Positions 1 to 63,868 of a stretch of DNA of 64,000 bases are shown in pieces (position 1 is the stretch's first letter; every line of letters starts with the position of its first letter). The notes below the pieces were generated by a model. It was not told the DNA's origin. It ran no database searches and was given only the letters and a program-made list of their open reading frames with translations. The stretch comes from Amoebophrya sp. A120 (taxonomy: Eukaryota; Protista; Dinoflagellata), in the NCBI GenBank assembly GCA_905178155.1, contig CAJINV010000016.1, forward strand, positions 1,687,102-1,751,101, written 5' to 3'. The translations under genes and the position numbers were made by a program.

Positions 1-3000
1 TCGTCCCAGAGGATGACAGCACGACAGGATCATGGAAAGCATTCTTCATTTCGATCGATGCAGTTGCAGCTACTGTGATACCCAAGAAGTTCTGGTGGTG
101 GGACGATGTTGCCGCAGCAGCAGCTGCAGAACTACCCGATGCTGGCGCGCTGCTTTGTGTACTAGTCTTCGCATGAATTATATCGCAAGAAAAAAGTGTT
201 ACAGTTACACATTGTGTTGCAGGCCAAGCAAGACAGACAAGCTCTGTCATGCCGGATATGCATCGGAGCCTCCTTTCATAGGTATTTTCCCGTAGGATTT
301 CTGCATTGCAAGTTTTCTCTCTCATGCAGAGAAATTTGTGTTCGCTGAATTGACAACAAATGTGTAACTGTAACACTTTTTTCGTTCGATAAATTACCCT
401 CGGCGCGACCGGGCTGTCCGGTAAAACCAAAACCTTCTTCTATCGTTTTCAAAAACGTCCCCGCCCCATAGTTGTAATGCAATTCTGCATGCTGCAAATG
501 TTTCTCATTCGGAGCCCCATGAGAAGCGTTTTCTAGTCGTGATTTGGAATTTGTCATGCTCCAATCAGCATGGTGTGCTAGATCTGTGATGCTGCTCAGC
601 TAGCTCAAACAGCACTACACTACGAGTCCATGTTTGTCATGCAAAACAGCCAAAACTTGTGGATTTGTCTAGCCGATTCCCCATCTTGACTATGGGGTGG
701 GTACGTTTTTACATATGATATCTTCGGCGTTGGTGTGGTTTTCATCACAACGGGTTGTTTTTTGGAACTCTTCGTCCCTTCGCCTTCGAGCAAATCCGGT
801 GTGACAACTACGTCGTTGAAGATCAATTTTTCGTCCGAGTTGTGGATCAAAACGGTCTTGCAGGTCGTGGTCAACGGGTCCGGAGAAGATTTCGTCACGG
901 TTAACAAATCGTCTGCGGAGAAACAATCTGTTGTTCCCAGGGGGCTCGATTTCGTGCAGTCCAACGGACTGGCTTTGGTGGAAATCGAAGCGCCCAGTGG
1001 GCTGGCTTTGATCGTCGAGTTCTTACGGGAGATGAATTTTTTCGTCGCCGTGGTATTCAGCTGCAGTTGTTCTGGGTCCGATTGCATGGCTTCCTGCTTG
1101 CCTGGTGCAGTAGTACTAGTCGTGGTCCTCGTGTTGTTTGCTGTAGTGGTGCTCGTGCACGACGGTGGTCCTGCTCCAGCTGGTGGCGCACTGACGGACT
1201 TTTGCGTCACTGGGTAGTTGCTCTCGGTCTCGTCGATGCGATTTCGTCCGCACGACTCCAGAAGTTCACTCGATGATTTTCCACCACAAGAACCCTGTTC
1301 CTGCTTTGGCGATTCGATGATTTCCTCGTCCGTGGTCTGATTCAAACTCGTATAGGATTGTTGCGACGGCGATTTGTCATGCGAATCTACTTGCGAAACC
1401 GGAGATTTATCGTCGGAACTACAAGCGCCGGAAGATTCCTGCGACGGTGAAGATTTGCCGGCGTCCGATTGCGAAGAAGATGCTGCGGATAACTCCGCCG
1501 CTTCTCCTCGCCCGGAGGATGGGGAAATCAGATTGCTTTGATGTTCCGATGAGGCGGCGTTGCTGCTTGCGGCAGCTCCGGTAGTCTTTTTTGTTGCAAC
1601 TGCCGTCGTGTTCAGTGCAGCCGTCTTTGATTTCTTCAGATCGGAGGCTCTTTGCTCACTAGTTTTCTTCTTGCTGGTGGTCGTAGTTCCCGCCGACGTA
1701 GCCGCTGTGTTATTTGTTGACGAGCGTTTGGTCGTAGAAGTTGTAGTAGTCCCAGTTGCAGCTGAATTGGAGGTTGCTTTCCGATTTGTAGTCGTCGACG
1801 CTCCGGATTTATGCGACGGTGGCGCCGCGAGGACGGCACTGGTACTCGCCGAACCAGATCCAGTTTTCTTCGACTTTGAAGCTGCATTACTAACCAGCCG
1901 TCCGCTCTTCCGCATTTTCTCCTTCTCCATCTGAATTTTCGTGTAGTCTTTTCGTTCCACTACCTTCGGCGACTCTTTTTTTCCAAAACTAGCGTCCATC
2001 ACTTGAATGTGCTGCTTTAGCTGGTGCAGCGACGGGTCGTTTGATTTGGCGACCTGAAAAAAACGACGTCAAAAGCACAAATTGTTGTCATGGTAAAAAA
2101 CGGGTGGGAATAGGAAAACCTAAATCCTAAAACCAATCATGTGAAACATGCATATAAACGCAGTCCCATCATTTCTCAACGTTGTGGTCGTCTTATCTAC
2201 ATGCATCAAATGTAACCAGCAACCAGACCTATACCTTCTCCCTCAACGCTTTCATTCTCGGATCGCTGCTTTGTGCGATTTTCATGTCCAGCGGACTGGG
2301 CTCGACGAAGGAATCTCCCCCCTTCTGCTTGATAAAATCCACGCTGTTTGTATGCATTGCAAAAGCATCGTACTAGTACAAATCGCATGACAAAATTTAT
2401 CAGAAAGAAAATTGGAATTTGTAATGCAGATTTGGGTAGGAAACCAGATTTGTCATGCATACCTGCAATTCATACGAGTACGATACTTTTGCAGTGGATA
2501 GTTTGTTGACAAGGACAACGGGTTCCCGTTCTTCTTCAGCAACTTCTGCAGTTCCGTCGGGGAGATCGTGTTCAGGCACACGTTGGTCGTTTGCTTGATC
2601 AATTTCTGTTGGTCCAAAGATTGCGACAACTGCTTGATGATTCCCGTGTTCGGCGGTGTGACAGTGCACAACCCCCTCTGTCCCTCATTTGTAATGCAAA
2701 ATACCAAATCCACCCTTGGCCTCTTGGCACTTTTGCATGACAAGTTCTGGCAGCCCAAATAGCGCTACACTCTCGTGCAAATTTGTGATGCAAAGCCGGC
2801 ACTCTTGCTGATGCTTGTATTGCCGTTCATGCCATACAAAAAAAAAGGGAGGGGGAGTTGTGCACTGTCATAGTCGGGGGGATGCCCGTAACACTCGCCG
2901 CTTTCGGATTGTTCGGTTGCTTCTTCTTCATCGACTCCGCCTTCTTCGGACTGGAATTCTCGTCCGAGTCCTCCTTCGATTTCGGTGGCGGCGGTGGCGG

Positions 3001-4390
3001 CGCGTGCTTCTGGACAGGCGGCGGGACCATGGGGTGGGCCTGAGGTACGGTAGTCAGTGGGTTGATAGCTGCTGATGTGTCGACGGCTCCTCCTGCCGCG
3101 CTTGATGATGAATCGGCTTGATGTTGCGCGGCTGCAGCTGCTGCACCCTGACCGCCGACACCAGTGTTGCTGGCTTGGGAGTGAGAGGAATACGTGCGGG
3201 TAGCGGAAAGAGCAGCAGCCGTTGAAGCTGCTGCTCCTGCGTGGTACTGGCTGTGGTAATAGGCGGAAGCTGCGGCAGTAGATCCTGTGGTGGCGTTTAT
3301 TGCGTAGTCACCTCCCGCTGTGCCGTACTGATGTAGTCCACCTCCGCTTGTTCCCCCGTGAAGATCACCTCCGTAGTAACTGCCGTACGCCGCTGCAGCT
3401 GCGCCGTTACCACCTCCGTAGTGAAGATCACCACCTCCATAATTGCCGCTGGTGTGGTCATGATGATGTACAGCAGCTGCAGTACTGTACAAGCCTGTAT
3501 TCGTGTTGTAGTAGGAGTTGTGATAAGAACCACCTCCTGTTGTTCCTTTCGTGATCGGCCCCGTGTTGACCGCGTGATGTCCACCTCCGTAGTTGTACCC
3601 CTTACTCGACACTCCAGCCACGTTACAACCGTAGCCATAGTAGTCGTGGTTGTTGTAACCAGCTGCGCCTTTCCCAGCGGAATTGTTGTATGATGCGGAA
3701 GTAGAGGCCCACTTCATCCCACCACCTGCTCCGGAGTTGTATTTACTTCCACCGCCTTTGCTGGAGGTCCTCGTCGTGGTTGCAACGGGGGCGGCGGGCA
3801 TTGTTACAGCAGATGCAGCTCCGGCGGTTGTAGATGCTGCAATTGTTTCGCCAGTGGCAGCTGCCCCCGCGGTGGCAACTTTGCTGGCACCAACAGCATT
3901 CCCGCCGGCGGCCCTGGAGTAGAGTTGAAATGCGTGCAAGTTCAGTAACTGCTGCTGCAGCACAAGGGTTCTCTCGGCAAAGCTCTTATCAAGCTCAATT
4001 TGTGCTTGCAAGCGAGACGCAAAACCGCTCTGCTGGATTGATTCCAGGTTTCTTCTGACTGTCTCGTCTGTACCGAGCTCTGGCTCGTAATCGTAGTGCG
4101 TAAAATTTTATGCATTGCAAAAGTAGTATCGTACTCGTATAAATGCATTACATGCATTACAAACTTCCTCAGCATGGGAAACAAAATTTGTCATGCGGGT
4201 TTACCTTAGGGAAAAAATTTGTAATGCATGACTGCAATTACTACGAGTGCGATACTTTTGCACAGGATAAATTTCCACTCTTGATCATGCCACTCCTGGC
4301 ATTGATGATTTCTAGCTGATACAGCTTCTCTGCTGCAGAGAGCTTGGTAAAAGGCGGATCTCCGACTCTGTTGTAATTGCAGCGCTGCAT
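1..4390 (-). CDS. Large low-complexity (S/T/G/Y-rich) hypothetical protein, multi-exon, runs off the left edge
   Basis: ATG at 4390. Frame stays open after removing five TIR inserts (4109, 2657, 2351, 441, 181; each plus one 5-bp repeat) and a GT-AG intron at 2054-2234; joins ORFs 2827..4011 and 620..2002. No domain recognised. Confidence 0.7.
181..391. mobile_element. Introner, family G
   Basis: TIR TATCG..AAAAAAGTGTTACAGTTACACA / TGTGTAACTGTAACACTTTTTT..CGATA; direct repeat AATTA; removal gives ..APRVI|HAKTS.. Confidence 0.88.
441..720. mobile_element. Introner, family B
   Basis: TIR TATC..AAAAACGTCCCCGCCCCATAG / CTATGGGGTGGGTACGTTTTT..GATA; repeat TCTTC; removal gives ..TPK|KVLVLP.. Confidence 0.9.
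2351..2500. mobile_element. Introner, family A
   Basis: TIR TATGCATTGCAAAAGCATCGTACT / AGTACGATACTTTTGCAGTGGATA; repeat GTTTG; frame restored (..LSTN|SVDF..). Confidence 0.9.
2657..2872. mobile_element. Introner, family H (single copy)
   Basis: TIR TGTGACAGTGCACAAC / GTTGTGCACTGTCATA; repeat GGCGG/GTCGG (1 mismatch); frame restored (..GIPPT|NTGII..). Confidence 0.8.
4109..4269. mobile_element. Introner, family A
   Basis: Family A TIR; repeat AATTT; frame restored (..KSGNF|THYDY..). Confidence 0.9.
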
Positions 4391-5990: not shown

Positions 5991-6138
5991 TATCTTCCTG
6001 TGCAAAAGTATCGCACTCGCATTGCAATCATGCATTACAAGTTTCCTCGTTAAGTCAAATCCGCATTACAAATTTTATCTCTCACGCTGATGAAATTTGT
6101 AATGCATTTATGCGAGTGCGATACTTTTGCAATGCATA
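5991..6138. mobile_element. Introner, family A (host gene not resolved)
   Basis: TIR TATC..TGCAAAAGTATCGCACTCG / CGAGTGCGATACTTTTGCAATGCATA; repeat GTGCA; probably inside a short unrecognised minus-strand ORF. Confidence 0.8.
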
Positions 6139-7411: not shown

Positions 7412-9582
7412 TTAATATACCAGGTTCGGATCGTCCGGTGAGTATTTGGAGACCAACAAAAAGAAGTCCCGATAGTTCTTCATCAGCGATTTCTCGTGCG
7501 CTTTCTCTGCCGCCTGCTTCATTTTTTTCACATCCACCTGATTGTCTTTCAAGAACAACCCGAACGACTTTGCGTCCTTCAAGTGCTTGGAGGGGTGTCT
7601 GCTCGTCGTGTCCTTCGACGAATCCGACCTGCTCGCGAGCCCGGAAGAGCCCATGGTCCGCAAAATTTTTGCCCCTAAGCTCATCTTTTTCGACTTACTT
7701 TCGTCGGTAGAGGGTGCGGAGCTATCGCGGGAGGACGTTCGTTCCTCGACCGACGATATGGATTGCAAAAATGTCTGGGTCTGGAAGAATGCAACCTGTG
7801 ATGCATGTTGCGCATCATACAAAAATCTGTGTTGCGTGACTTGCAAAAGGTGCTCATTTCTGGCCATGCTGCGGGGGCATTTCTTATGCAGAACAGCAGG
7901 CATCACAAAGGGGCTGCAGCTCCTGTGATGCTAGGTCCTGCATTCCAGACTTAGTGGAGCTTGGAAAAACTGCATGACAAATCTCGGAATCTTCCAGACC
8001 CAGACATTTTTACATTTGATAGACGAGATTGTCTCCTGCGTCGCTTCCTTCTTCGGCAGGGGGGCAGAAGAGCCGATGTCCCGTGTTACCGTCGCCCCGT
8101 AGTTGTTAGAAGCACTTGCGGGAACTGCAGCTGCTGCTGTTGTACTAACCCCTGGCGGCCCGCTCGAACTAAGCGCCGTTGTATATGGCGTTCTCAAGCG
8201 TTACATTCTCAACTGTTACATGATTTGTCATGCAAAATCACAAGTAGAATTGATACGAACAAGCTGCTCCGCATGACAAATTCTCGAAGAGCCAAACAGG
8301 CTGAGAATCTGTGCCAAATCTGTCATGCTAGACGCGCAAGGTCACCCCTTTGACTTTTGCCATTCTTGCATCACAAATTCATGCAACAGCTGAGAATGTA
8401 ACAGTTGAGAACGCCATATTGTAGTACAACCCCTAGTAGCGGTCGCTTCGGAGAACGAGAAGGTAGAACTCCCCTCCTGTTTTGCGTTGCCCTCTGCGCT
8501 GAAGTCCGGCTGGATTGCTGTTAGACCTCCAGAGAGTTCCTGGTCTTTGGAGGTAGAACGCTGCTCGCGACCCGTCGGATACAACCGATTGGCACTGTCC
8601 GTGCTCGCTTGGTGCGCCAACGCAGCGGATGTCGTCGTTTTCTTCCCGCTTCCAAGAATCGTCGAACTAGTCGCACTGCCGGGCGTGAACCCGACGTTCG
8701 TGGCAAAGGACCGGGTGCGGAAGGTGCGGAGTTTGGCGTAGTCGGAGCTCTTTTTGATGCTGTATGGCGTTCTCAAACGTTACACTCTCAACTGTTACAT
8801 GGATTTGTCATGCAAAAGCAACTTCAGCCGGCACATGATCGAGCTGCTTCGCATGACAAATTTCGGAAGGGCTAAACAGCATCTAAATCTGCGCCAAACT
8901 TGTAATGCAAAAGGCGCAATCTTCCTCCTTTCACTTGTTTTGCCAGTCTTGCATTACAAATCCATGTAACAGTTGAGAATGTAACATTTGAGAACTCCAT
9001 ATGCTGGGATACTCGGTTCGGGAAGAAACCGAAGTGCCACTGGTGCGGTTGTTGTAGGCGACATTTTCGAGATCGTCGTCGTATGTGGCGGAGCCCTGCG
9101 CCCCGAGTGGTTTGTGAGCGCGACCTGCAAACGTCGCCGCAGCGGTCTGCGACTGTCGAATCGGTGGCGGGTTTTCGCTACCCCAACGCATCCTGTCGTT
9201 TCGCGTTTCTTCACCGTCGGTAACATTTTCGTCGTCGTTGACAGAACCTGCGATCAACATGTGCTGGGGTTTATTATTTTTCGGCTCCCAGCACATTCAG
9301 GATCCGAAGGAAGTAGTAATGGATACTATTGGCTACCGGCGGTCATGCTGAAAAGCATTCCTGTTTCTGTATGTTCATTTCCCAAACAGTTCCTAATCCA
9401 CACTGAAGATACACACAATATTTCTCCGTACCCCCTGCCTCCCATCGCGTCCCATCTCGTGTTGGTGAGGCCGTGGTGAACTGCCTCTGGTCGTCGATTT
9501 GCTCGGTATGACGGGAATGCTCCAGGTCGTCGTTCACCGCCGCTGCTGCGAAAGGATCGTCCATTGCCATCAGAAAGACCAT
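7412..9582 (-). CDS. Hypothetical S/T-rich protein, multi-exon
   Basis: ORFs 8931..9296, 8342..8776, 7931..8197 and 7412..7906 join in frame after removing inserts at 8763, 8184 and 7757; 5' end uncertain. Confidence 0.6.
7757..8021. mobile_element. Introner, family D
   Basis: TIR TAT..TGCAAAAATGTCTGGGTCTGGAAGA / TCTTCCAGACCCAGACATTTTTACA..ATA; repeat GACGA; frame restored. Confidence 0.9.
8184..8418. mobile_element. Introner, family C
   Basis: ~39-bp TIR TATGGCGTTCTCAA..GTTACATTCTCA.CTGTTACATG; repeat TTGTA; frame restored. Confidence 0.92.
8763..9001. mobile_element. Introner, family C
   Basis: Family C TIR; repeat TGCTG; frame restored (..YPS|IKKSS..). Confidence 0.9.
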
Positions 9583-11640: not shown

Positions 11641-12051
11641 GGGATAAAGTGGAAGCAGTATACACAAAAACAGAACTGGGAGCGTGCTTCTCATGTTTGT
11701 TGAACAACACCGCCGAAGTTGCTATGAACACTGAGTAGATCACTCCAACTATATTTGAAATCGTGTTTTACACTTCGATCCTTGCCGCTTTCGTGGCGGC
11801 GCTTTCGTTGCGGCGCAGAAGTCGTTTCTCTCTTTTTTCGTCCGCAGAGATAAAGGTGTATAGTACTAGTAGTTGTACGGGTATACAGATTCCCCTTACA
11901 TCGCTTTTCGCTACACAAACACAACAAGTCGCAAGTTACAGCGGCACGAATCAAGTCCCGTTTCAGCAACTCCAACTGACAACATTCACGGCAAATGATG
12001 ATGTCCGACAGTGCGTAAAAAGCGTCGTGGTCGACCAAACTCGCCTTTTCT

Positions 12052-13745: not shown

Positions 13746-15441
13746 TTTTTTGCTTTGATGTTTCTTGTCGTGGGGGGATAGTGAAGGAAGGTCGTGAAAG
13801 TGAAAGGACTTGTGGGCTTTCGTAACTCTAAAAGGGAAGAGGGGTACAACTTCTACTTCAGGTAGATGAAACTAGAAATAAAAGGTTTCTACATCAGGGT
13901 CGGTGCTACTTAGTTACACAGGGCGGGCACTGTTGGGCGGGATATAATTCAAAGAAATTTTGAATTTAGCACGCTAGCAAATACTATAGATAGACAGCTC
14001 TGCAGATGTGCTGCGAATTCATTTAAAGCAATGCCAATTGATCCTCAAATCCTATTATCATCTGTGCTCGATCCTCGATGCTTCGGACAGGCTGATCCAC
14101 GACTTCTTTGGATGTCACTCAGGCAAAGGGGCACTAGGGTGGGGATTTTTTTTCTTTGGGTCCTCGAAAAAACGGCTCGCTTTCCTTCAGACTCTTGTAT
14201 ATTTCTATAGAGGAAAGACTCTAGTACGACAACGACTTTGCCAAACAGCACTTTTGATTCTTCCTATGCTAGAGCTGGCGCCAGAACATCTTGCTTTCAA
14301 CTGCGACAACAGTCCATCTTTGTTTTCCGATCTGGCCTCGTTGCTGTAGAGCGGCGCGACCTCGAACAGAAATGAAGCGCAGTTGTTTCCATTTCTTGTG
14401 ATTTTCAAAAACTGTTGATTCTCCTTTTGACAAGAGGAAAATGTTGAAGAGATATTAATTCGATCGAGTTATTTTTTCGTCGTGTTTTGCTCCTGCTTCC
14501 CATCGCCCCCTCCACATCTTCGCGATCGCTATCGAAACAACATAGGAAGAGGACCATCGTCCCTTTCAACAACTCGATCGTGCTTGATGATGAAACTAAA
14601 TCTGATTCCCTTACTTAAATCCTAAAAATTATCATTCGGATAGAGCGGTTTCGGCTTTTTCTCATCCCGGGCATTGTGTTCATAGACATAACAACAGGCG
14701 AATAGGTAGAACGAGGATAAAAAGCAGCAATCGAGGTCGAGGCCTCTCATGCCTGGGGTACGTACGTAGTTGGCATAGATACCGGGAGGATGCCGAGTGT
14801 AAAAAAAGATTCTTCATGTGATCCTGCAGTACGGTGGCGTTGTCGGTTTGCTGAAGGTAAAACCGTGACAACATCCTCAATTTAATCACAACAACATGCT
14901 AAGAATCTGGATCTGTAAAAACAAGTAAAGTTTTACCTTACAAAACATCTAAATCCTGCGTCCCTTATTGATGCGCGGATTTTCTTCCTGTTGAGTGATT
15001 CCTTAAAACCTTTTCTGAAACTTTCTTTTTCAAGGTGAAATGTGATGTGATAATCTGTGAATCTAGGTTTCCTGTAAAACGAGGGTTGTCCGATGGACTC
15101 TTGAAATCGAATACCAGCCAAGAGCAAACACTCCTTACAGTAGTGCTCGTCTTCTGCATTGAAGAACGGAAAATAAATGAATCTTACGGGGTGTGAAGAT
15201 TTGAGATGAAATTTGGTGTAAGTAGTCAAAGAAATCGTAAAGTTTTTTCGTTTTGATGTTCTAGACATTATGCATCATACGTCTTTGGTACATCTACACA
15301 CGGATTGTGTTTTTTTTTTCGCTTTTTCAATTCGTCTGTCTTAAAAGTCCATTTTTGGACTTACCTACCATCATGCGCGTTGTCAGAAGTCGCTATTACT
15401 TGTTCCCGCATGACCACAAGTTGTAGTACCCCGCCTCTGCC

Positions 15442-32304: not shown

Positions 32305-32513
32305 GTATGGAATGCAAATCGTTAATCAGGACGACGACCACGAGCGACACGAGATAAAAGAGTGTAAAGAAAAAAACAGGCGGATGCTTTTATTTGCTTT
32401 TACCGATGCAAACGAAACATAGAGCGTCAGCGTTTAGGCCAACACCCTCTACTTCCGATAATTTAGGCGGCGACGAACTTTTGGATACCCTTGGCTTGTC
32501 AACGTTGTTGGCT

Positions 32514-52700: not shown

Positions 52701-55693
52701 GGTACTAGGTCCTCCCTCTTCAGCGTTTCCACTTGATGTTGCCCTATGCCTATCCGTAGTACTGGAAGGTGCAGCAGCTCGATCATTCCCACGACCCATG
52801 GCCGCGCGAGCAGCAGCTGCTGATACAACAGCAGCATCAGCTCCACTTTTCTTTTTCCGTCCGAGCTCCCTCGCAGGTATTCTGGGGCGCCTGATCTTCG
52901 TCTTAGTGCCATTTTTGTTTTTCCTGCTGCTGCTGTTTTTGTTGTAATTGTAGCTGTTGCCGTTCAACATGTGGTTCCCAGCCGAGGACGAAGAAGATCC
53001 AGCAGCAGCGTCGTAGTAGTAATACTGCGGCTTCGCCTCCTTTCCGTCTTCGTCAAACCCCAACAGCATCCACTCGGTAAATTCCACCAGCTCCTCAACA
53101 TCGACAATTTGGTTGCGGATGATATCGACCAGCAGCCGCATCCGGAGATTGTCAAGCTTCTTCACGTTGATGTCGTCCACTTCTTGCGGCGCCTGCGCAA
53201 CAACATCAGGAGCGGCACTCGCACTGGTAGCTGCATCAGACTTGGTCAACATATCAACATCTTTTTCTACTTTGCTGTCTGCCACCTCAGCTTCTCGACC
53301 TGTAGTCCTATCTCCATCTGGCGCAGTTGATGCTGTTGTTGTGTCCTCACTATCCAATTTCAATTCAAAATATTGTTTTTTCATGAACTCGAGCTGCTTC
53401 TTCCGGTTATCCCAGTACCGTTGCCGGGCCGAGTCGATGGGGTCCAGGGACTTCTTCCGTTTTGCCGGGTTATTTTCCTCGTCGCTGGAAGTCAATCCGA
53501 GAGAAGATTTCCGGTCCCGCGAGATGCTGCGCTCGTTACCGTCATCCTCGTAGACGTTCGACTTAGTGATAGTGTCGTTGACTGTTGATGTTGACCCATC
53601 AAAGCTGCGAATGCGAGAAATGTTGTCGAGATTATCTCTGCTTCCAGGGTCGTTCACATCGAAGAAATGCCTGGAAGCTGTGCCAGTTCCGGAGTACAGC
53701 AGCGCACCATTGGGCGACTGCTCCTTGTCAGCTTGCTGTTGGGCTGGTGGTTCTTGCTGGGTGGAGGTACTATCAGTATCACCGTCGTTGGATTTTTGGT
53801 TGGGTTTGTTTTGATGAGGTAGACTAACATCGGGCTTTTTCTCATCTGCTACACCACCCTTTCCATCTTCTGCGGAGGTTCCAGTTTTCCTGCTCTTCTT
53901 GTTCCGCGGTGTGTGGAGGTTCTGAATCACCTGTGGATCATCTTCCTGCTCATCCTTGCTGGCGACGCTTTTACCAGCACTGTCACCAGCCTTTTCTTCT
54001 CTTTCCTTCCGCTTCTGTTCCGATTTCAATTTTTCTTTTTCCTTCCGCTTCTGCTCCTTATCAAAAGGAAAAACGTCCCCACCCCAGAGCTGTCATGTGG
54101 TTTGCAATGACAAGGACATCTGTGATGCGCATACCCCTGGTAGACATTTCCAATCGTGTTTTGAAATTTGTGATGCTGTGAACAGGATAAGCAGATAGAT
54201 CTGTGATGCGGCTGCGCTTGCTAATCTGCATTACACTACGGAGGGCAACTTGTCATGCGTGACTCCCAAAACTCCTAGGTTTGTGTTGCAAAGTCCCCAG
54301 CTTGACTATGGGGTGGGGACGTTTTTACACAGGATACTCCTGCTGCTGCATTCTCTCCTTGATGAGATCATAATCCACATCGCCAAAAAGCACATCCTCG
54401 GTCGCCGTGCGATTGGCGGGAAAGAAGCGGGACGACGCGGAGGTTGAAAATGTTGATCCTGCACTACTGTTTTGTTCGGAGCTGCTGCTACTACCCTCGA
54501 CGTTGACCGCACTTGTAGTGGTTGCGCTGTCGCTAGTATTTCTGTCGCTCCTGCTTCTTGGACTTTCCATAGAAGTGCTCTCCTTTGGAGTTGGAGTTCC
54601 TGGGCTTCTATCAAAATAGAAGTCCTCTGGGGATGAACTGCCAATGCCCCGGTTGAGATCATTATACCCAGCAACATCTTGCTGATGAATGGAACTTCGG
54701 GAAGATGACTGCTCGTTCAAATTTCGATACTGCATTTCTTTTTATGAACTGCAAAAGTGAAAAGTATCGCATTCGTATAAATGCATTACAAATTTCTACA
54801 GCATGAGAAATAAAATTTGTAATGCGAAATTGCCTTAAGAAAAGGATTTGTAATGCATGATTGCAATACGAGTACGATACTTTTGCACAGGATACTATCT
54901 TCGACGGACTGACGTTGAGAAGATCCAGCGAGGCCAGATTATGGCGTTCTCAAACGTTACATTCTCAGCTGTTACATGATTTGTCATGCAAAATCACAGT
55001 TAGAATTGATACGATCAAGCTGCTTCGCATGACAAATTCTCGAAGAGCCAAACACGCTGAGAATCTGTGCCATATCTGTCATGCTAGACGCGCAAGGTCA
55101 CCCCTTTGACTTTTGCCATTCTTGCATCACAAATTCATGTAACAGCTGAGAATGTAACAGTTGAGAACGCCATACAGATCGGCTTCGCCGTTGGGACTTA
55201 CTTTTGATGTTCGTGTTCCGATGGTTCCGTTATTATTTTTCGTCCCATTTATTTTGCCGAAATTCACCGCAGAAGAGGAGGAGGACGCAGCGGAGGTGCC
55301 GATCAATACGCCGTTCACGACCCGATTGGCTCCGGCGGTCGGATTTGTAGACGATGTTGTAGTGGTACCAGTTGTACCGCGTGGGGTCAACAATCCACCT
55401 GATGCATTTCTACTACTGCTCGTCCCCGCGGCCGCGCCAGACGGTGGACCTGCTCCAGCCGTACCCTTATTGCTCACAACTCCCCCTCGAGGTCCGCCAA
55501 CCACGCCTCTCTGCGAGGCCAAGTTCGCCGCCGCGACAGCACCGACGGACGCAGGCACGGCTGCTGTCGTCGATGTGCCGCGTGGCATCACAAGTTGCCC
55601 TCCGACGAAGAAACTGTTGCTGGCGCCGGAAGAACTGTTGCTCATATTCAGGGCGTATTTGTTCTTTTTGGAAGCCATCTTGTCTTCTTGCAC
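43789..55693 (-). CDS. Giant PP2C/PPM-family protein phosphatase (~2,870 aa reconstructed)
   Basis: KENQDA, FGVFDGHG, SGCT, VWNSGDS, LNLARGFGD, YLVLGSDGVFD, SDDTSAIAI in order; removing 12 TIR inserts (plus repeats) and GT-AG intron 50395-50628 leaves 8,616 nt in one frame by my count. Confidence 0.85.
44732..45013. mobile_element. Introner, family B
   Basis: Repeat GTGCG; left tip is TTT instead of TAT; frame restored. Confidence 0.85.
45073..45396. mobile_element. Introner, family E
   Basis: Repeat ACTTC; frame restored. Confidence 0.85.
45688..45975. mobile_element. Introner, family D
   Basis: Repeat GTAGG; left tip TGT; frame restored. Confidence 0.85.
46424..46698. mobile_element. Introner, family D
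   Basis: Repeat CCGTC; frame restored. Confidence 0.9.
49672..49979. mobile_element. Introner, family F (single copy)
   Basis: TIR TATGGAAGCGTCAGGATTGAAATCGTCA / TGACGATTTCAAACCTGACGCTTCCATA; repeat CCGGA; frame restored (IQIR|MICR). Confidence 0.9.
50146..50295. mobile_element. Introner, family A
   Basis: Repeat CGTAG; joins NQDALLFDY|GYIN..FGVFDGHG. Confidence 0.9.
50799..51078. mobile_element. Introner, family B
   Basis: Repeat CGTTC; frame restored. Confidence 0.9.
51613..51873. mobile_element. Introner, family D
   Basis: Repeat AACAT; frame restored. Confidence 0.9.
52424..52585. mobile_element. Introner, family A (degenerate)
   Basis: Left tip CAT; repeat GATGT/GCTGG (2 mismatches); removing element plus 5 bp restores the frame. 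Confidence 0.75.
54059..54336. mobile_element. Introner, family B (divergent body, family-E-like left tip)
   Basis: Repeat CTCCT; frame restored. Confidence 0.88.
54743..54894. mobile_element. Introner, family A
   Basis: Repeat degenerate (CTTTT/CTATC); removing element plus 5 bp restores the frame. Confidence 0.8.
54940..55174. mobile_element. Introner, family C
   Basis: Repeat CAGAT; 9 differences from the 8184-8418 copy by eye; frame restored. Confidence 0.93.
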
Positions 55694-56810
55694 AAATAAA
55701 AATTACCGAAAAATTTTCAATCTTGGGATATTCTTCGCTTCAGATAAACGACAAATCCAGGATCGAAATCTGAAAAAACTAGCGAGATCTTCTAGTATGG
55801 GAGGTACTATACTACTTCACTAAACATATCATAAATAATCATGCGACATATGCTTCGAACTGAAGCAAACAACACGACTCAACCATTCGTTGCAGCTTCT
55901 TGTGTAAACTACAAGGTGAGAGTGAGTGGAAGAGCGCTTGGAGGCTTTTTCAAAATCCAATTGAAGACAAATCCCAGATCAGCATCAGAGTTTTGGTGCC
56001 TGAAGAAATCAAATCAAAAATCTCTTTTGATGAAAAAGCAAGCTGCATGAAACTAGCACCATGAATCATGCGAGATTGTTCCCCGTAAATGTGCGATTGG
56101 AAGATTCTTCGACACAGTTGGATGCATGCAGCATGTGCCAGCGGATATTTGGAACAATTGACGAGACCCAGTTCGCGATCTTTCACCGGCCGAGGAAAAT
56201 TGTTCCTGGGGTCACAAAGCCGGATGGAAAGAGTCGAGTGGAGAATCACATCATCGGTGGGAAAATTTTCAGACTAAGAAAAGGATCAAACGCCAGTGGA
56301 CGCACGTTGCGCAGTGGAGGAGCAGGAACATGAAAGAACTATCATATGCGGCGGTGCAGTCATGCGCAAACGCTTGCGCACGCTTTGCCAGTGCAGTGCG
56401 TTCCATTTCTGAACTGCAATTGAGGTCATGACTTCAGAACCAATAACCATTCCGGTCCTCGTCGTCTTTCAGAAATATACTCGAAGTAGGGAAAGCTACA
56501 CCGCAGTGATTTGAAGAGCAAAGTTGATGGCGCCACGAGGGATGAAAAGGATTCAAATCGCGATATTCTAGATTTACAGCGAGCAAGATTGGAAGGTTTT
56601 TTCTTGTAGACTCTCATCAAAGTATTCATCAGCCGAAGTTACAGTGTCTTTTTCGATCTATCAAAATCAATGAAAAGTGTGATGAACAATGTAGTTTTTC
56701 ACTTTATCTAGGCAATGGATTTCCCAGGACAAAGTTTCAATACAATCACGTCGACATCCCAGAAAGGGTGCTTCTTCTACCGCATGGCTCTAGAAGTGGT
56801 CGGAATCGTT

Positions 56811-59800
56811 TCATTTTTTCGAACCTACAACTTCGCTCGCATCCTGCGAAAATGATTCCTCTTGTTCGTCCTGAGCTGCCTTTTCCCGCGCTAGTCTCTC
56901 TGCCTCTTGCTGCTCCCTGTACTCTTGGATGAACGATTTCGTCCGAATCACCACGGGCACCTGCGTCGTCGTGTGGTCGTCGTCATTTGCCAGCAATGTG
57001 ACGGACAGACGGTTCTTTGAGGTGTGAATGTCCTTGGCAAACCGCTTCTCCACATACCCCATGGCCATGCTCTTCCCGGTTACGTTACTGAACGCTCCGC
57101 TAGTGGTGTACCCGATTATTCGTTCTTCACATTCACTTGATGTGGAGTTGCGGTTGTCATCTCGATCTCGCCCATGCGGCCCTGCTACGTCGTCGAAATA
57201 GCTCGTTTTTACCCAAATCGGCTCGCCGCCGACGCAATGTGACAGCTGTTCCGCGTCTGCGACCTCGCTGCGCGAAGAGGAAAACGTCGAGGAGAGACTG
57301 GCGAGAGCGGTCACAGGCGAGGGCGTCGCGGTGGAAGTTGTGGAGGTTCTGGTGCTCGTGAGATCTTCCGCAACTGTATCGTCCTTCCCTATCTCTCCAC
57401 TGATTCTGGCTCCTGATCCTGCATCTCCGCTATCTGTCGTGCTAGTACCTCGTTGGCCATCAGAAAGAACGGAACTCGCGTCATTTTCCGATGCACCTAC
57501 TTCTTCCTCGCCAATCAACACCTCGAGCAGGACGAGTCGCATAGAGGAAGGTTCCTTTGTGGTCTCCAGCCTTTCATCCGCTTGTCGATTCTTGTCTTCA
57601 TCCTGGGGGGAAGTAGATGTCGGTTGTCGCCGTGATTCTCTAGTTGTTTTCTTTGAGTGTGGTCCTTCTTTCGCCGTTTTTCTTTTGTCTTTCGAGTTCG
57701 AATTCACCTCCCTCAGTAACGCGTCCCTTCCACAAAAGTCTGGCGGCTTTCCCGCAAGGATACTATACAACTCACCGTCTAGATCGTTTACCTCGCTCTC
57801 CGAAAACACCCCTGCTTCTATCGCGGAGTAGTCGCGCGTCAACTCCGCGCCAATTCTCGCCTTTGCGGATTCCAAGCGCAGTTCCTCCAATGTGTTTTGC
57901 CCGATTTCCTGCAACTCCGGAATGGACGCAAGGAGGTACTGGTACAAACCCAACACCTCCTTGCTGTTTATGGATTGCAAATATGTCTGGGTCTGGAAGA
58001 TTGCAAGTTGTCATGCATTTTCTGCATGACCCATGATGCCTGTAATGCATGACCTAGCATCACTGATTTTTAGAGGACTTCCTGATGCCTATAATTTCGC
58101 ATGAGAAATGCCCTCTCGTCCACGTAACACCAACTGGGCTCCAGTTGCTGGTCACGCAATACAAATTTTTTTCGAATCCAGAGACAGCATCACAAGTTGC
58201 ATCCTTCCAGACATCCAGGGATATTTGCAGTTCGATACTGTTCACGTGAAATTCAAACGCCTCTTCAGAGCCGTACGCATTATTCTCCGGCGGCAGCCGC
58301 ACCACCCGACAGAGCGAGTTTATCAACTGTAAAAGTTTGGGTCTGGAAGATTCTGAGACTTGTCATGCACGTGTTGCGTGAGCCATGATGTCTGTGATGC
58401 ATGCCCTATCATCACAGATTTTTTGAGGGCTTCTCGATGCCTATTCGGCATGACAAATGCCCTCTTCGCGTAGGAAAAAACGCTTCCTTTGCTGCTCATG
58501 CAATACAGATTTTCATTTTTTTGGAATCCAAATGCAGCATCACAAGCTGCATTCTTCAGGACCCAGACATTTTTGCATTTGATAGAGTTGTTGATCGTGA
58601 TAAACCGGTAGGAGTTTTCCTCCCACTGGGGTCCTGCTGCCTCATCGGCGAACAGGTCGCGAATGTGCTTGGCCAGCGCCGGCCGCGCTTCCCTTCCCGT
58701 CACAAGAAGGACTGAGAATGTCGCCACCGACACGCTCGGCGGGGGAGCGGGGGCGCAGTCGGACGTTGAGGCTCCTTCAGCTTCCTCCTGCATCACAAAT
58801 GCTTGCTCGACCAACGCGGAGTAATCCTGTCCAAACCGCTCTATCGGGGAGGTGAGGTAGAAAGTGTTGCTTGTTTGCACGTTCTGGTAATCGGAATTGG
58901 TACTTCCCCCGCCGCCGCCAGTGGATGCCGCCACAACTGTCGACGTCGCGCTGTCTACGTGCATCACCTGGAACTCCGACAGAATGCCCCCGGTGGTCGG
59001 GGACAGCAGGTAGCCGTGTTCCACGGTGTTGTTGGTAATTTGTACGGCGGGAGATGTTGGTCGGCTGCCTTTTTCTGTGTGATGTTCGTTTTCGCCGTTG
59101 TGGTCCCTACCAATATTTGTCGTCGTGTTTGGAGCACGCCTCGGTTTTCTTGAGTTGGAATCTTCAATACCTTCGAAGTGGTCCACGTTATCTTCATTCA
59201 TCTTCACCACCGGAATCCGGCAAGTGAGCATTCTATCCAGAAACTGTTCCGCACACACCCCTTTGACCTCAAACGCCGCCCGCGGCAGGTAGGCCAGCGC
59301 GACGCCCTTCCGGACCGCCACCGCCTCGGCGGTGGAACCTCGCTTGCGAAAGATCGACACCGCTTTCTGCACCAGCGCGCCGGCGCCGGTGGCCGGAGCG
59401 GCCCCAGACCCGGAAAAGGACTCGACAAACTGCCCCGAGGCGTCTAACACGGCGTTTCGCTTCTGCACGAGAAATTGGAGCAGTTCCTGGTTTGCGACCG
59501 TTGCGTCATTGCAGAAACTGCGGGAGATCGCGGTGCAGGTGTTCTTTGAAGAATTCGCTCCCGTGCTGAAACTGCCGCTCGTGTTCGAATTGGAATCCTG
59601 AGCTCCGCTCACGTCGCCCCCAACGGCGCTCAGCAGCTTCGACGCGGTCTGCTGACTTTGTTCAACTGTGCAATGAAAAAGTATCGCAGTTGTAACAGCT
59701 TAAAATTTTCCATATGGATCTGCAAATTTATTCTATTTCGAAAGGCTGCATGAAGATGCGAATTTATAAAAATCTGGTTTCCTTTTCGGGAAAAGTTGAA

Positions 59801-62800
59801 GTCGCTCTGTCATGCATGAGCATGAGCATTATCATGATTGCAAAAATTAGTACCAGCAGCACTGCGATACAGTTTTGCACTACACCATATCGACTGTGCT
59901 GTACCAAAACCGGACGCCCTCCTGGATTTTCTCTGGTGAAAGCGAGTTCGCGAACCGTCTCGGATCCACTTCGTCGAGCTCGTATGGCGGCTCGTTGTGC
60001 AGGATGAAATGCGCCAAGTAGTTCCCCAGGCCCGCGCACCGCGCGACCGAGAGACTGCCGTTTGCCGTTGCGAGCCAGTAGTTTTTTCGCCACGCGCTGC
60101 GACGGGCTGGGGCGAAGTTGGTGTTCGACGTGTTGGCAGCGGTTGTACTGGTGGAGCTAGATGAACTAAAGCAGGCTTTGGCAATGTCAGCCGAGCCGGG
60201 AAAGATGCCGGAAGACGCGGTCGCGTATGACGAGTTTGGGCTGCCGGAAGACCCACCGGCACCAGACGTGCCACTGCTGTCCGTTTCCAAACCTGCAGAG
60301 GCGGCGCTAGTTATTCCAAACGCCCCACCAGAAGAAAGAACAGAAGTCCCTCCAATACTTCTCGGTTGTTGTATCGCGACCGGGCCGACCAGCGGAAGTG
60401 CGTCCAGTGCGTGCACGATCGGGGCATTCACCACTTCTTTTATCCCCACCCCACCCAGCAGGGGCATCAGCTTGCTGGCGGCCTCCATGTGCGGGAAAAG
60501 TCGATCGATGTTTGCGTCGTAGCGGTAGTACTGTGGGTAGTTGAAGCAGTTGGTCGCGCTCGCCGGGGTTGAGAAGACCACGTCGCGTTCCGCGGGTGCC
60601 AGGATGAAGCTGTGACTGGATGAAAATTGCTCGTCTACCTGGTACAGGGAGAAGGACCCCCCAATGTCCTGAACGATGGGGACTACAAGCGGGTCGTCCT
60701 GGGGCGTGGGGGAAGTTGATGTAGTCGGGGCCTCGTCGGTATTTGTACTCAGAAGTTCAAGTTCTTCTTTTTCCAAAACGGGATTTTCCTCGTCGCGAAA
60801 ACCGGTAGATGATGAACTACCTGCAGAGGTCGTGGTACCGGAGGTTTCACTACTACTACTTTCAGGGTGTCTTACAGCTGCACCATTTGTAGTTTTTTGG
60901 TTCACGTCACCGTCACGTGCTCCAGCTGCTGCGCCCTCATTTTGTTCATCCCGTATCATCTTTCTTGTAACATCTTCGTCCTTTGAAGTGGCGGCCATGC
61001 TCGCTGTGTGTGACGATGATGTCAAGGTCTCCCGCGAAGAAGTAGCTGCGGGTGCTGGAACAACTGCGGAGTCAGCAGTTCCTGCTGTTGTATCGGTGCT
61101 GGTCGCGGAGATGATCTTCGGCTCCGTTTCATCGGCAACTGGAGGTGGTGTATGCTGTGCAAAAGTATCGTACTACTCGTATAAATGCATTTTTCTCAGC
61201 ATGAGAAATGAAATTTGTAATGCAGATTTGCCTTAAGAAAAAGATTTGTATTTGTAATGCAAGACTTGCATTTATACGAATACGATACTTTTGCACAGGA
61301 TATGGTGGAGGAGACGACGATGTTTTACTTTGTGAAGCCACAGCGGTTTTGATTTCGTCCATCATCAAGTATTGGTGCTGCATCACCGCCACAGGTACTT
61401 CCACGTTGGCCAGCATGCCGACTTCCCGTGCGTTTAGCCCCGCGGCGTTTACCACATGGTCACACACCACAACCTGCTCGCGCACCGTGCCGCCGTTCTG
61501 CCACTCCACCGTCACCTCCCACTTGAAATCGGACTTGCGCTGGTTCGGCTTTATCCAGTGCAAAAATATGATGATCGTACATACAAATACAAATTGCAAC
61601 ACAATTTTTTTATTTTGTCACAAAGCAAAGTGAAAATGATTCTCATGCGGTATGCGGTGCCGTCGGCGTGATTTGAAATATTTATATATATGAGTACGTC
61701 GACACATCAACTTTTATTGCAGTGGGTAGTTTCCACCACAGTGCAGTTCTCGAAAATGAGATTTCTCTCTTCACGACTGATGTGCTGTTCTTCTTCACCG
61801 CTGCCGGTCGGTGAGATCTTGACATTCTTGTTGCCTAAACGGTTTATCTCCCGTACCATCGCCGTTCCAAAAGCCCTAGCGTCCACGCGTCCCGCGTCGG
61901 GGTAGTGCAGCACGATGTTCTGCGAGTTTTCCAAATCTAGTATGCATTGCAAAAGTATCGCACTCGTATAAATGCATTACAAATTTCCTCAGCATGGCAA
62001 ATAAAATTTGTAATGCGCATTTATCTTAAGAAAAAAATTTGTAATGCATGACTGCGATTACTACGAGTACGATACTTTTGCAATTCATATCTAGAAACGG
62101 ATATCAAATGCTACGGAAATTATTTCAATTCTTCGATCTCACCCTACACCAACTGGTGACAACTCTTGTACGTGTACGAGCGTTGTTGAGAAATGGCACG
62201 CCCGGTGTGTTTATTGTGGCTTATTTGAAAAGCTCTGCAGTGAAGCGGATGACGGCGATTATGCTCATCTACATCCTCATTTTCTCCAGCTGCATACATT
62301 CAAATTGATAAACATGACCTATGTAAAAACCCATTGTTCTGGCCACAAAAAAGGCCGGTTGCCGTGTCTCGAGCGGCTTGCACCAAAATAAGATGAATTT
62401 CCGCTAGGATAAGCAACTGCTGCAGTTCCGGAAGGGAATAGTTGGCATTCGATGCTGGTGAGGGAGCCGTCGTGGAGCCTCCAGACGGAGCCGTCGTGCT
62501 TGTTGGAGACGTCGCGGCACCTCCACTTGCTGATCCTGGTAAAGGCGACAGTAGCGGTTCGAAGCTACTTTCTTTTGCTGACGTGGAAGGCATCGCCTGA
62601 AGATCTTGGTACTCGTGTACCTTCGCCAGGCCGACCTGTATCCAATGCAAAAACCACCTCCCCACCCCATAGTCAAGCTGGGGATGATTTGGCTACGCAA
62701 AGAAAGAGCCAGCATCGATCTTTTGGCTGTCGCGCGTGACAAGTTTGGGCGAGCCCAAACGTGTCATCGCGTTTCACTTTTCTAGCTGCATCGCAAATCG

Positions 62801-63868
62801 ATACCCTGGTGCTGATTCCAGAAGGATGACAAACGTCCAGACAGCATTAGAGAATGCTCCTCATGGGGCTCTACATCATCATCATCATGTAGCGGACACC
62901 CGCACCCAGCGCCACAGGTCAAGGATCCCCTCCCCGGGGGGTGGGCGAGGAAGCACTTTCGGCGACCTCATCATACAAAAGCCGAGCGCTACCACGGCAA
63001 GTCGCCCCAACACACATGACAAACATTCGAAGCTTGCGGATTTGCATGACAACAATGAGGTAGGGAGGTACAGGTTTTTCCTCAGCATAATCTGGTAGTG
63101 CGCCTCATCCGACTTCGCTTGGGGCAGGATTTTCAAGCAGCCGGCACTTCGTCTCGAATGAGAAGTGGCTGTGGAGGAGACAGAGGAGGCAGATGTTGTA
63201 GTTGAAGACAGCGAGGACTGTGGCGATGTAGTTGAAGTCATCAAAGCAGGATTTTGATTTGCAATTTCAGCAACAGATTTTTCATCCGCACTGCCATTTT
63301 GTTCACGTTCTTCTTCCCCGTCGGTAGTTACCACGGCTTTTATCTTCGGCGAAGTGTTCGCTCTCTCCACCACGTCGCTTTTGTTCCCCAACATCCCAAG
63401 CTCGCGCGCCAGCTCACACGTTTCCTTGTGCCACCGGTACAGGTTTCCGCGCATCCCACTGCCGCCCGAGTTGGTGCCGTACTGGCAAAAGGCCGTGCCG
63501 ACAAACCCCGCGGAGTGCCACGTGGACCCGGAAAACAGCTCCGCCTTTTCGAACAAAATCGCGGACCGGTTTATTTCATGTTGGTCCGGTTTGATGTTGT
63601 ACTTGTGGTCGTCTCCGAGGTCCTCGCGTTTCATCTTATTTGTGAGCTGGTACAGTAGAGATACGCCGGTGATGCCACCGCCGATGATGACAACCGAAGC
63701 CTCGCGCGGAATCGTCGAGGTGCTTGCAGCAGTCAAGATCTTTGTGCTGTTTGCGGTGGAACTACCCGCGTCTGCCGTCCTGCTTAAAAGTGTAGTTGAC
63801 CACGAGTTCGGACCGGAAGACGAGCCTGTTTGAACGTTGGTCGAAGGCGGAGTAGTATGAGAGTGCAC
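56811..63868 (-). CDS. Dimethylglycine/sarcosine dehydrogenase-like flavoprotein (DAO-type FAD domain plus GcvT domains); 5' end may lie beyond the window
   Basis: VVIIGGGITGVSLLYQL, LFEK.EL.SGSTWHSAG, VVNAAGLNAREVG, MQHQYL, VVNAPI..DALPLVGP, EVDPRRF, LRLE, IGYTTSGAFS..GKSMAMGYV. Confidence 0.85.
57969..58237. mobile_element. Introner, family D
   Basis: Repeat CTGTT; frame restored. Confidence 0.88.
58321..58584. mobile_element. Introner, family D
   Basis: Repeat GAGTT; frame restored. Confidence 0.88.
59667..59889. mobile_element. Introner, degenerate family-A-like
   Basis: Residual TIR GTATCGCAGT / ACTGCGATAC; repeat TCAAC/TCGAC; frame restored. Confidence 0.7.
61151..61302. mobile_element. 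Introner, family A
   Basis: Repeat TGGTG; frame restored. Confidence 0.9.
61941..62089. mobile_element. Introner, family A
   Basis: Repeat TCTAG; removal gives YPFL|DLEN. Confidence 0.92.
62639..63089. mobile_element. Introner, family B (inverted, with a ~140-bp nested insert)
   Basis: Repeat ACCTG/ATCTG; frame restored (HYQ|IGLAK). Confidence 0.8.

What the first reader, a model, noticed from the sequence alone, without database searches (positions are those of the whole stretch)
181..63089. 42 TIR elements from 8 families interrupt exons and must be precisely removed as non-GT-AG introns
Seen: 42 inserts (A x14, B x9, C x4, D x7, E x4, F x1, G x2, H x1; 145-451 bp) with terminal inverted repeats and a 5-bp flanking direct repeat that differs at every site. 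For 41, deleting the element plus one repeat copy restores the ORF, including conserved motifs of CDC23, PP2C and two flavoproteins. Sliding the boundaries through the repeat gives GT-AG in only one case (15609). Established: inverted-repeat introner elements forming non-canonical introns are reported in Amoebophrya genomes, and as far as I know their removal mechanism is unresolved. Inference: these are non-autonomous DNA transposons removed by a splicing route that ignores GT/AG and runs in parallel with normal introns.
Basis: partly seen in the sequence, partly recalled or inferred. Interest (0 to 1): 0.92.

Follow-up and report, generated by a model that had tools for sequence, protein, structure and literature searches.

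The report
Transposon introns with hidden splice signal
These are the already published mini-transposon introns of the marine parasite Amoebophrya A120: transcripts lack each tested insert plus exactly five bases, and copies whose flanking repeats have drifted point to a likely fixed cut position with conserved U-A and A bases, which suggests a relaxed spliceosome likely removes them.

Summary
I count 43 complete TAT…ATA elements plus 3 older ones. Two proteins annotated in Amoebophrya sp. A120 map letter for letter, so these are the introner elements of Farhat et al. 2021 (PMC7789003): already known. Removal of element plus exactly 5 nt is seen in transcript contigs for 10 elements (one sample) and in annotated proteins for 14, with no exception. 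What I did not find in print: that paper calls the borders unknown, but 9 copies with non-identical repeats all fit one register, cutting 1 nt before the element and 4 nt after it. In that register, U+2 is kept in 307 of 307 oriented elements and A+3 in 306, against 20 changes at the mirror positions of the 3' end (p 2e-5). An A at -7 is kept in 306. All 10 canonical donors seen start GTA. So the route does not simply ignore splice signals. A relaxed spliceosome guided by the hairpin is my best reading (0.6); euglenid-like cut-and-ligate is the rival (0.28). No transposase was found. The scan noted similar single introns in two other dinoflagellates (unchecked notes).

The parts
181..391 (-). 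Element, family G; exact repeat. For every element the inferred intron runs from start-4 to end+1 on the + strand
   Evidence: ORF opens
441..720 (-). Element, family B
2351..2500 (-). Element, family A
2657..2872 (-). Element, family H; repeat differs at position 4, 3' end ACA; register unresolved
4109..4269 (-). Element, family A
5991..6138 (-). Element, family A; no convincing reading frame across it
7757..8021 (-). Element, family D
8184..8418 (-). Element, family E
8763..9001 (-). Element, family E
15609..15936 (-). Element, family C; the only one that can slide to GT-AG
   Evidence: RNA joint skips 333 = 328+5
16011..16155 (-). Element, family A
   Evidence: RNA joint skips 150
16652..16807 (-). 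Element, family A
   Evidence: RNA joint skips 161
17468..17613 (-). Element, family A
   Evidence: RNA joint skips 151
18063..18309 (-). Element, family G; drifted repeat, position 4 kept from the 5' copy
   Evidence: RNA joint skips 252, only 1 ambiguous base
18650..18934 (-). Element, family B
   Evidence: RNA joint skips 290
18996..19145 (-). Element, family A; drifted repeat, position 4 kept from the 5' copy
   Evidence: RNA joint skips 155, 2 ambiguous bases
22498..22647 (-). Element, family A
   Evidence: RNA joint skips 155
23174..23494 (-). Element, family C; drifted repeat, position 2 kept from the 5' copy
   Evidence: contig piece ends at 23167; 32 contig letters span 643 genomic bases = 326+285 removed
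23534..23813 (-). Element, family B
   Evidence: same arithmetic
24097..24422 (-). Element, family C
   Evidence: contig piece stops at its edge, 24091; other side not shown
37896..38063 (-).
   Evidence: gap 173 = 168+5 in P0002
39028..39308 (-). Element, family B, in CDC23
   Evidence: gap 286 in P0002
39347..39608 (-). Element, family D, in CDC23
   Evidence: gap 267 in P0002
39678..39990 (-). Extra old element; repeat 2 of 5; positions 1-2 kept from the 5' copy
   Evidence: gap 318 = 313+5 in P0002
40231..40465 (-). Element, family E, in CDC23
   Evidence: gap 240 in P0002; contig piece starts at 40466
41368..41659 (-). Element, family B; drifted repeat, position 5 kept from the 3' copy
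   Evidence: contig piece starts at 41661, not 41660; P0002 has Ser, not Phe, gap 297
44732..45013 (-). Element, family B, 3' end AAA, in the PP2C-like gene
   Evidence: contig piece ends at 44725
45073..45396 (-). Element, family C
45688..45975 (-). Element, family D, 3' end ACA
46424..46698 (-). Element, family D
   Evidence: contig piece starts at 46699
49672..49979 (-). Element, family F
50146..50295 (-). Element, family A
50799..51078 (-). Element, family B
51613..51873 (-). Element, family D
52424..52585 (-). Element, family A; repeat differs at 1 and 4, 3' end ATG; register unresolved
54059..54336 (-). Element, family B
54743..54894 (-). Element, family A; repeat differs at 1 and 3; register unresolved
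54940..55174 (-). Element, family E
57969..58237 (-). Element, family D
   Evidence: gap 274 in P0001; contig piece ends at 57963
58321..58584 (-). Element, family D
   Evidence: gap 269 in P0001
59667..59889 (-). Diverged A-like element, 3' end ACA; repeat mismatch is synonymous
   Evidence: gap 228 in P0001
61151..61302 (-). Element, family A
   Evidence: gap 157 in P0001
61552..61728 (-). Diverged A-like element, 5' end TAC; positions 1 and 4 kept from the 5' copy
   Evidence: gap 182 in P0001, Glu-Thr
61941..62089 (-). Element, family A
   Evidence: 473-base gap with 3 residues = 154+310+9 in P0001
62107..62411 (-). Extra old element, 3' end ATT, repeat no longer recognisable; position 4 from the 5' side, position 5 from the 3' side; leaves a 12-nt exon
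62639..63089 (-). Element, long family B copy; position 4 kept from the 5' copy
   Evidence: gap 456 in P0001, Gln-Ile not Gln-Val
27746..28044 (-). Candidate old element, untested
29529..29956 (-). Candidate old element, untested
32306..32578 (-). Candidate old element, untested
63855..64000 (.). Family H element cut off by the window end
15440..19220 (-). Host gene: pyridine nucleotide-disulphide oxidoreductase-like flavoprotein with 7 elements and 6 GT-AG introns (16218-16328, 16434-16586, 16901-17082, 17265-17397, 17859-18010, 18470-18592); gene ends approximate
   Evidence: weak Pyr_redox_2 hit below cut-off; joints; intron ends
37690..42819 (-). Host gene: CDC23/ANAPC8 with 6 elements and 2 GT-AG introns (38120-38285, 38813-38961)
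43792..50410 (-). Host gene: 1654-codon ORF with 6 elements and a weak PP2C match
50621..55702 (-). Host gene: 1228-codon ORF with 6 elements, no family
56814..63454 (-). Host gene: DAO + GCV_T flavoprotein (P0001) with 8 elements

Best explanation
These are short inverted-repeat elements flanked by 5-bp target repeats, likely non-autonomous DNA transposons, that transcripts lack together with exactly five bases, and they are likely removed by a relaxed form of the host spliceosome that is predicted to use the element's hairpin plus a residual donor signal. Shown: element+5 removal and coexistence with GT-AG introns. Inferred from 9 copies with drifted repeats (about 0.85): one register, N|U-A-U…hairpin…A-U-A-N-N-N-N, where the 5' exon keeps four repeat bases and the 3' exon the fifth. 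Inferred from strand-specific conservation: U+2 and A+3 are read like the host's GUA donor with G+1 released, and the A at -7 is read for its own sake. Speculative: that A is the branch nucleotide, and the 3' cut is set by distance from the stem rather than by AG. Because both ends start TAT, an element offers this donor in either orientation and at any site, which would explain why insertions into exons are tolerated. Mobilisation by a DDE transposase encoded elsewhere is inferred; none was found.
For: Removal: 8 element joints among the 15 joints shown all skip element+5, in four runs of one sample, beside 7 GT-AG introns; two more by arithmetic. Fourteen elements show gaps of element+5 in two annotated A120 proteins. 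Register: position 4 comes from the 5' copy at 18063 and 18996 (RNA) and at 61552, 62639 and 62107 (protein); positions 1-3 from the 5' copy at 23174, 39678, 37896; position 5 from the 3' copy at 41368 and 62107. Copies with 2 of 5 repeat identity are removed alike, so the repeat is not the guide. Asymmetry: 5' T-A kept in 245 of 245 (43 window, 202 from other contigs) against 18 changes at the mirror 3' positions, p 8e-6; third base changed 8 times at 5' against once at 3', p 0.04. With 62 more copies oriented by neighbours: 1 against 20 (p 2e-5) and 11 against 1 (p 0.006). All 10 canonical donors seen are GTA + T, C or G, and element donors vary the same way (TAT, TAC, TAG, TAA). Farhat Table S4: all nine top A120 non-canonical pairs have T second, and all nine A25 pairs start TT, where A25 repeats begin TTA. 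The spliceosome is nearly complete in A120, with U1 snRNA undetected. In the yeast P complex U6 A51 pairs with U+2, G-1 and A-2 dock on G+1 and the branch A, and Slu7 is dispensable below nine nucleotides. Orientation to the gene is about even (family A 57:50). The arms pair in 42 of 43 predicted folds.
Against: No lariat or excised RNA was observed; spliceosome involvement is inferred only. G+1, G-1 and A-2, which dock the 3' site in yeast, are absent (GT-AG in 7 of 245 in this register). The A at -7 is predicted paired in the stem in most folds (median probability 0.97), whereas a branch A is normally bulged (recalled), and no branch consensus precedes it; canonical acceptors here have no fixed A at -7. 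Only two copies bound the register from the 3' side, one by annotation alone, and only 62107 pins it by itself; a common register is assumed. Four of 13 drifted copies were uninformative. The RNA is one sample, contigs only, its RNA label a guess; annotated proteins are not independent of the genome. One exonic copy in L010 has TGT at its 5' end. The coding-strand caller was wrong on 2 of 40 confident window calls. G·U exceeds A·C in the stem (128 against 87, p 0.006), but one site gives 31 against 7 and the rest 97 against 80. Related copies are not independent. The NT pattern in Table S4 could come from the aligner.
Confidence: 0.6

Rival explanations
1. A dedicated non-spliceosomal nuclease and ligase cuts 1 nt before and 4 nt after the hairpin and releases a circle or linear RNA, as proposed for euglenid nonconventional introns; U+2, A+3 and A-7 are its recognition bases.
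For: Fixed offsets from a stem, free terminal bases, either orientation; U1 snRNA undetected; euglenid introns are hairpin-bounded, slidable and excised as circles.
Against: The conserved bases equal positions +2 and +3 of the host's canonical donor, with the same tolerance at +4; the terminal pairs are often broken at the 3' side and positions 4-7 pair in only 32-55%; the euglenid CAG/CTG signature is absent.
Confidence: 0.28
2. The elements are self-splicing RNAs or are excised by a factor of the transposon itself.
For: Strong folds (z -2.8 and -4.4); a conserved A seven bases from the 3' end recalls group II introns (recalled).
Against: Eight families of 145-451 nt share only short ends; no Rfam match in the window; old diverged copies are still removed.
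Confidence: 0.05
3. The missing inserts are reverse-transcriptase jumps across hairpins between direct repeats, and real mRNAs keep them or the genes are dead.
For: A hairpin flanked by short direct repeats is the classic substrate for this artefact (recalled); only cDNA-type contigs were seen.
Against: ORFs over 1200 codons and CDC23 need removal; contigs of 4.7-5.2 kb lack every element listed at depth 23-61; copies with decayed repeats lose exactly +5; strand-specific conservation implies selection.
Confidence: 0.02
4. The elements are cut out of the DNA in an expressed genome copy, like ciliate internal eliminated sequences.
For: Precise loss of element plus one repeat resembles precise DNA excision (recalled).
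Against: Contigs of run X5 (type not on record, even depth like DNA) run from exons into elements at depth 38-46; the same contigs that lack elements lack GT-AG introns; constraints follow the transcribed strand. Only 15 of 1216 joints were shown.
Confidence: 0.01

Closest known systems
Introner elements / non-canonical introns of Amoebophrya sp. A120 (Farhat et al. 2021, PMC7789003; read: abstract, sections 10, 11, 16, passages, supplement legends and part 3 with Table S4; figures not visible)
   Same: Same organism by two annotated proteins; inverted repeats starting TAT, seven looser bases, then A run; 3-5 nt direct repeats (5 bp in its Fig. S19 legend); RNA-supported non-canonical introns; MITE-like.
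   Different: The paper finds no clear splice signature and calls the border variable or unknown. Here one register and strand-specific U+2, A+3 and A-7 are proposed.
Introner survey of Gozashti et al. 2025 (PMC12130899; read: passages, supplement legends, one of 33 parts of Dataset S2)
   Same: Lists 58 A120 families, many as TIR DNA elements of unknown superfamily; one family has TIRs and LTR-integrase-like ORFs.
   Different: Splice sites are listed as mixtures (gt, gc, ga, at, non-canonical) per family; no fixed register in the rows I saw.
Euglenid nonconventional introns (PMC12501133, PMC11282704; passages)
   Same: Hairpin joins the ends, direct repeats make borders slidable, coexist with GT-AG introns, transposon origin proposed.
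   Different: CAG at +4..+6 pairs CTG at -8..-6; here pairing starts at +2 and -5 with TAT/ATA; circles shown there, untested here.
Fritillaria non-canonical introns (PMC11282704, PMC13326754; passages)
   Same: MITE-derived introns handled by a changed U2 spliceosome.
   Different: Preferred ends AG-AC and AG-AT, U1 preserved; here the ends are free except U+2.
Micromonas and Aureococcus introners (as described in PMC11282704 and PMC7789003; passages)
   Same: Non-autonomous TIR elements whose target duplication supplies part of the intron.
   Different: They end up with canonical splice sites.

Membership tests
Amoebophrya A120 introner elements | Occurs in Amoebophrya A120 | tested here: met
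   P0001 and P0002, named A120 by their source, map exactly across all exons
Amoebophrya A120 introner elements | Inverted repeat starting TAT, about seven variable bases, then A run | tested here: met
   position table; paper section 11
Amoebophrya A120 introner elements | 3-5 nt direct repeat at the borders | tested here: met
   33 of 43 exact; 239 of 319 in other contigs have an exact 5-mer, none 6-10 (borders were chosen partly on that repeat)
Amoebophrya A120 introner elements | Repeated, and removed from RNA without GT-AG | tested here: met
Non-autonomous TIR DNA transposon (MITE) | TIRs, constant-length target duplication, short, non-coding, many copies | tested here: met
   366 distinct copies in 162 loci
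Non-autonomous TIR DNA transposon (MITE) | Autonomous partner with a transposase and the same ends | tested here: inconclusive
   two long copies (815, 1104 bp) have no Pfam match; only 0.5 Mb searched, no genome held
Non-autonomous TIR DNA transposon (MITE) | Empty orthologous site with one repeat copy | tested here: inconclusive
   no fetched locus was orthologous to the window
U2-type spliceosomal intron | GT-AG or GC-AG ends | tested here: not met
   GT-AG in 7 of 245 in the inferred register, 11 of 245 in any equivalent register
U2-type spliceosomal intron | Donor U+2 and purine +3 | tested here: met
   307 of 307 U+2; 306 A and 1 G at +3, given the inferred register
U2-type spliceosomal intron | Lariat with a branch adenosine; snRNP dependence | not testable with these tools
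   needs lariat reads or inhibition
U12-type intron | Extended RTATCCTT donor (recalled) and minor snRNAs | tested here: not met
   element position 4 is C 117, G 120 and later positions vary; minor snRNAs reported absent
Euglenid nonconventional intron | CAG +4..+6 paired with CTG -8..-6 | tested here: not met
   against the description
Euglenid nonconventional intron | Excision as circular RNA | not testable with these tools
   contigs of mRNA only

The most novel reading that the evidence does not exclude
Amoebophrya A120 runs a spliceosome that has dropped G+1, the AG acceptor and U1 pairing. It splices N-U-A donors at a hairpin, branches at the first A of the terminal ATA and cuts a fixed six bases beyond it. 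Any transposon ending TAT…ATA with a 5-bp target repeat is then a perfect intron at any site and in either orientation, and strain A25 (TTA ends) reaches the same U+2/A+3 rule with different elements.
Probability: 0.35. Interest if true: 0.85.

Novelty: already known. Interest (0 to 1): 0.52.

Why it matters
The elements are published, so the window adds no new kind of system. But how about 65% of A120 introns are removed is open, partly because the repeats hid the borders. A fixed register turns that into sharp tests: where the branch should be, which three bases should be essential, and which annotated borders need moving. If the spliceosome does it, this shows which splice-site contacts can be given up and how a genome can make transposon insertions into exons harmless.

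Tried and rejected
No genome is held, so no genome-wide test, transposase or snRNA search. The run search listed no holder on record as RNA. The joint table was swamped by X5. No protein was found for the 50621-55702 gene, so 52424 and 54743 stay unresolved; 2657 was not tested. No match in viral contigs. The metagenome scan stopped at 164 stretches of about 520; 162 loci were stored. Of 366 copies, 21 failed the border filter, 202 got a confident strand, 62 took it from neighbours, 86 had none and 16 were dropped. Sense and antisense folding energies do not differ (22 of 43). Repeat composition and mismatch direction show no drift to G or AG. Orientation-specific signals inside families were rejected. 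GT-AG use at 15609 cannot be excluded by RNA, since all five registers give the same mRNA. Not in print: searches and reading as listed showed no fixed register; a 2026 review (PMC13149111) has no mention of Amoebophrya. Roy et al. 2023 (Curr Biol) was seen only as a reference, its preprint only as a listing with 0 hits for Amoebophrya; Farhat Figs 3, S19-S25 and Gozashti Fig. S8 are pictures I could not see and may bear on the register.
Full report
Observation. Self-comparison showed dozens of short repeated segments. A scan for a 5-bp flanking repeat with complementary ends gave 28 strict hits against none in three shuffles. Relaxed scans and profiles gave 43 complete elements in eight families. 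They start TAT, have about seven loosely paired bases, an A run and a family-specific stem, and end ATA. All 43 repeats are different; 33 pairs are exact. The long ORFs and all Pfam-matched genes examined lie on the minus strand, and removing element+5 opens ORFs of up to 1654 codons. Exon pieces match ArfGap, ANAPC8/TPR, GCV_T_C and DAO, and weakly PP2C and Pyr_redox_2 (138 of 208 minus-strand stretches scanned).

Identity. Two of three protein searches each returned one protein named Amoebophrya sp. A120 by its source (one search found none). Both map exactly over all exons. Farhat et al. 2021 describe A120 introners starting TAT, seven looser bases and an A run, with 3-5 nt direct repeats, a 5-bp example, 65% non-canonical introns, and borders that are variable or unknown. 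The feature is therefore already known.

Removal. Contigs of four runs from one sample, labelled RNA by guess, were laid on 15000-24900. Of 21 joints, 15 were shown: 8 skip an element plus exactly 5 bases and 7 skip GT-AG introns, in all four runs. Two more elements follow by arithmetic (643 genomic bases against 32 contig letters). The eleventh is seen from one side only. The loss of GT-AG introns shows that these contigs are spliced. Contigs of run X5 run into the elements at even depth near 45, while summed depth on element bins reaches 216,769, which points to very many copies but is no copy number. So 24 elements were tested and none deviates.

Register. Identical repeats hide the cut; drifted ones reveal it. 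Of 13 drifted copies, 9 were informative. Repeat position 4 comes from the 5' copy at 18063 and 18996 (RNA) and at 61552, 62639 and 62107 (protein). Positions 1-3 come from the 5' copy at 23174 (RNA piece), 39678 and 37896 (protein). Position 5 comes from the 3' copy at 41368 (contig piece starts at 41661; Ser not Phe) and 62107. All fit one cut between repeat positions 4 and 5: the intron is one base, the element, then four bases. That the register is shared is an inference. Copies with 2 of 5 repeat identity or less follow it, so the repeat is not needed as a guide.

Hidden signal. A metagenome scan gave 162 loci holding the same families at 71-94% identity, with 366 distinct copies. A coding model oriented 202; neighbouring calls agreed in 115 of 116, and on the window, its own training set, 38 of 40 confident calls were right. 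Families lie both ways about equally. With the window's 43, the first two bases at the transcript 5' end were T-A in 245 of 245, whereas the mirror bases at the 3' end changed 18 times; the third base changed 8 times at the 5' end and once at the 3' end. Same-base contrasts argue against mutation bias: T+2 0 against T+4 8, A+3 0 against A-5 9. Sixty-two more copies added one 5' exception (TGT, apparently exonic), three 5' TAC and two 3' changes. In the register above these bases are U+2, A+3 and A-7. All 10 canonical donors seen read GTAT, GTAC or GTAG. The paper's commonest non-canonical pairs all have T second. For A25 its TTA start with TT donors would give the same U+2/A+3; that is my reading of the paper, untested.

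Mechanism. The arms pair in 42 of 43 predicted folds (examples). G·U exceeds A·C in the stem, mostly at one site, which is modest evidence that pairing matters in RNA. In the yeast post-catalytic spliceosome U6 A51 pairs with U+2, while G-1 and A-2 dock on G+1 and the branch A, and short branch-to-acceptor distances need no Slu7 (passages of 10.1101/212811). The elements keep the base that U6 reads and lose those that dock the acceptor. A120 keeps nearly all spliceosomal proteins, with U1 snRNA undetected, and tunicates offer a precedent for a relaxed U2 spliceosome. I put this at 0.6. Against it: no lariat was seen, the -7 A is predicted paired, and there is no branch consensus. A euglenid-like nuclease and ligase gets 0.28. 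Self-splicing, reverse-transcriptase artefact and DNA excision get little.

Mobility. Constant 5-bp repeats, TIRs, no target preference and copies up to 96% alike fit non-autonomous DNA transposons. No transposase was found: two long copies have no Pfam match. Gozashti et al. 2025 report an A120 family with TIRs and integrase-like ORFs, a plausible but untested helper. A related strain from Karlodinium has mostly GT/AG introns and U1 (PMC12005148, passages).

Verdict. Real, already known as a class and in this genome. The register and the strand-specific bases were not found in the papers I could search or read, though figures and one subscription paper were out of view. They make the open question directly testable. 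Two earlier scan notes describe single similar introns in other dinoflagellates; I did not check them. Interest 0.52.

Noticed in passing
window elements and introns, e.g. 16434-16586, 17859-18010: The motif TTGT[ACG]ATGC occurs 94 times in 10,189 element bases (both orientations), 7 times in 1,238 bases of eight GT-AG introns (6 on the sense strand) and 3 times in 24,463 exon bases. It may be a transposase site with some canonical introns being old elements, or an intron-binding signal.
   Followed up: partly
element ends, positions 4-10: A small set of end variants recurs across families and at either end; positions 4-7 pair in only 32-55% while 11-14 pair in 92-97%. Ends may be exchanged as modules.
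   Followed up: partly
window 62090-62106 and 23495-23533: Micro-exons of 12 and about 32 nt sit between adjacent elements and are kept in the annotated protein or in transcript contigs.
   Followed up: partly
window 10300-11650: A G+C-rich stretch (0.62 in 10001-12000) with no Pfam match in the frames scanned and no Rfam match; an unpaired element-like start lies at 10061.
   Followed up: partly
L010 505-1608 and L042 4650-5464: Long copies (1104 and 815 bp) with F-like and E-like ends, exact 5-bp repeats and G+C-rich interiors; no Pfam match.
   Followed up: partly
window 5991-6138: A family A element with no convincing reading frame across it; possibly in an untranslated region.
   Followed up: partly
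window 35616-35648: A 33-bp near-perfect palindrome with no flanking element.
   Followed up: no
window 12362-13087: Weak CIAPIN1/Dre2 match just below the Pfam cut-off.
   Followed up: no
245 oriented elements: Removed lengths modulo 3 are 75, 67, 103 (p 0.013), probably because family A is often 150+5 long; there is no excess of multiples of three.
   Followed up: no
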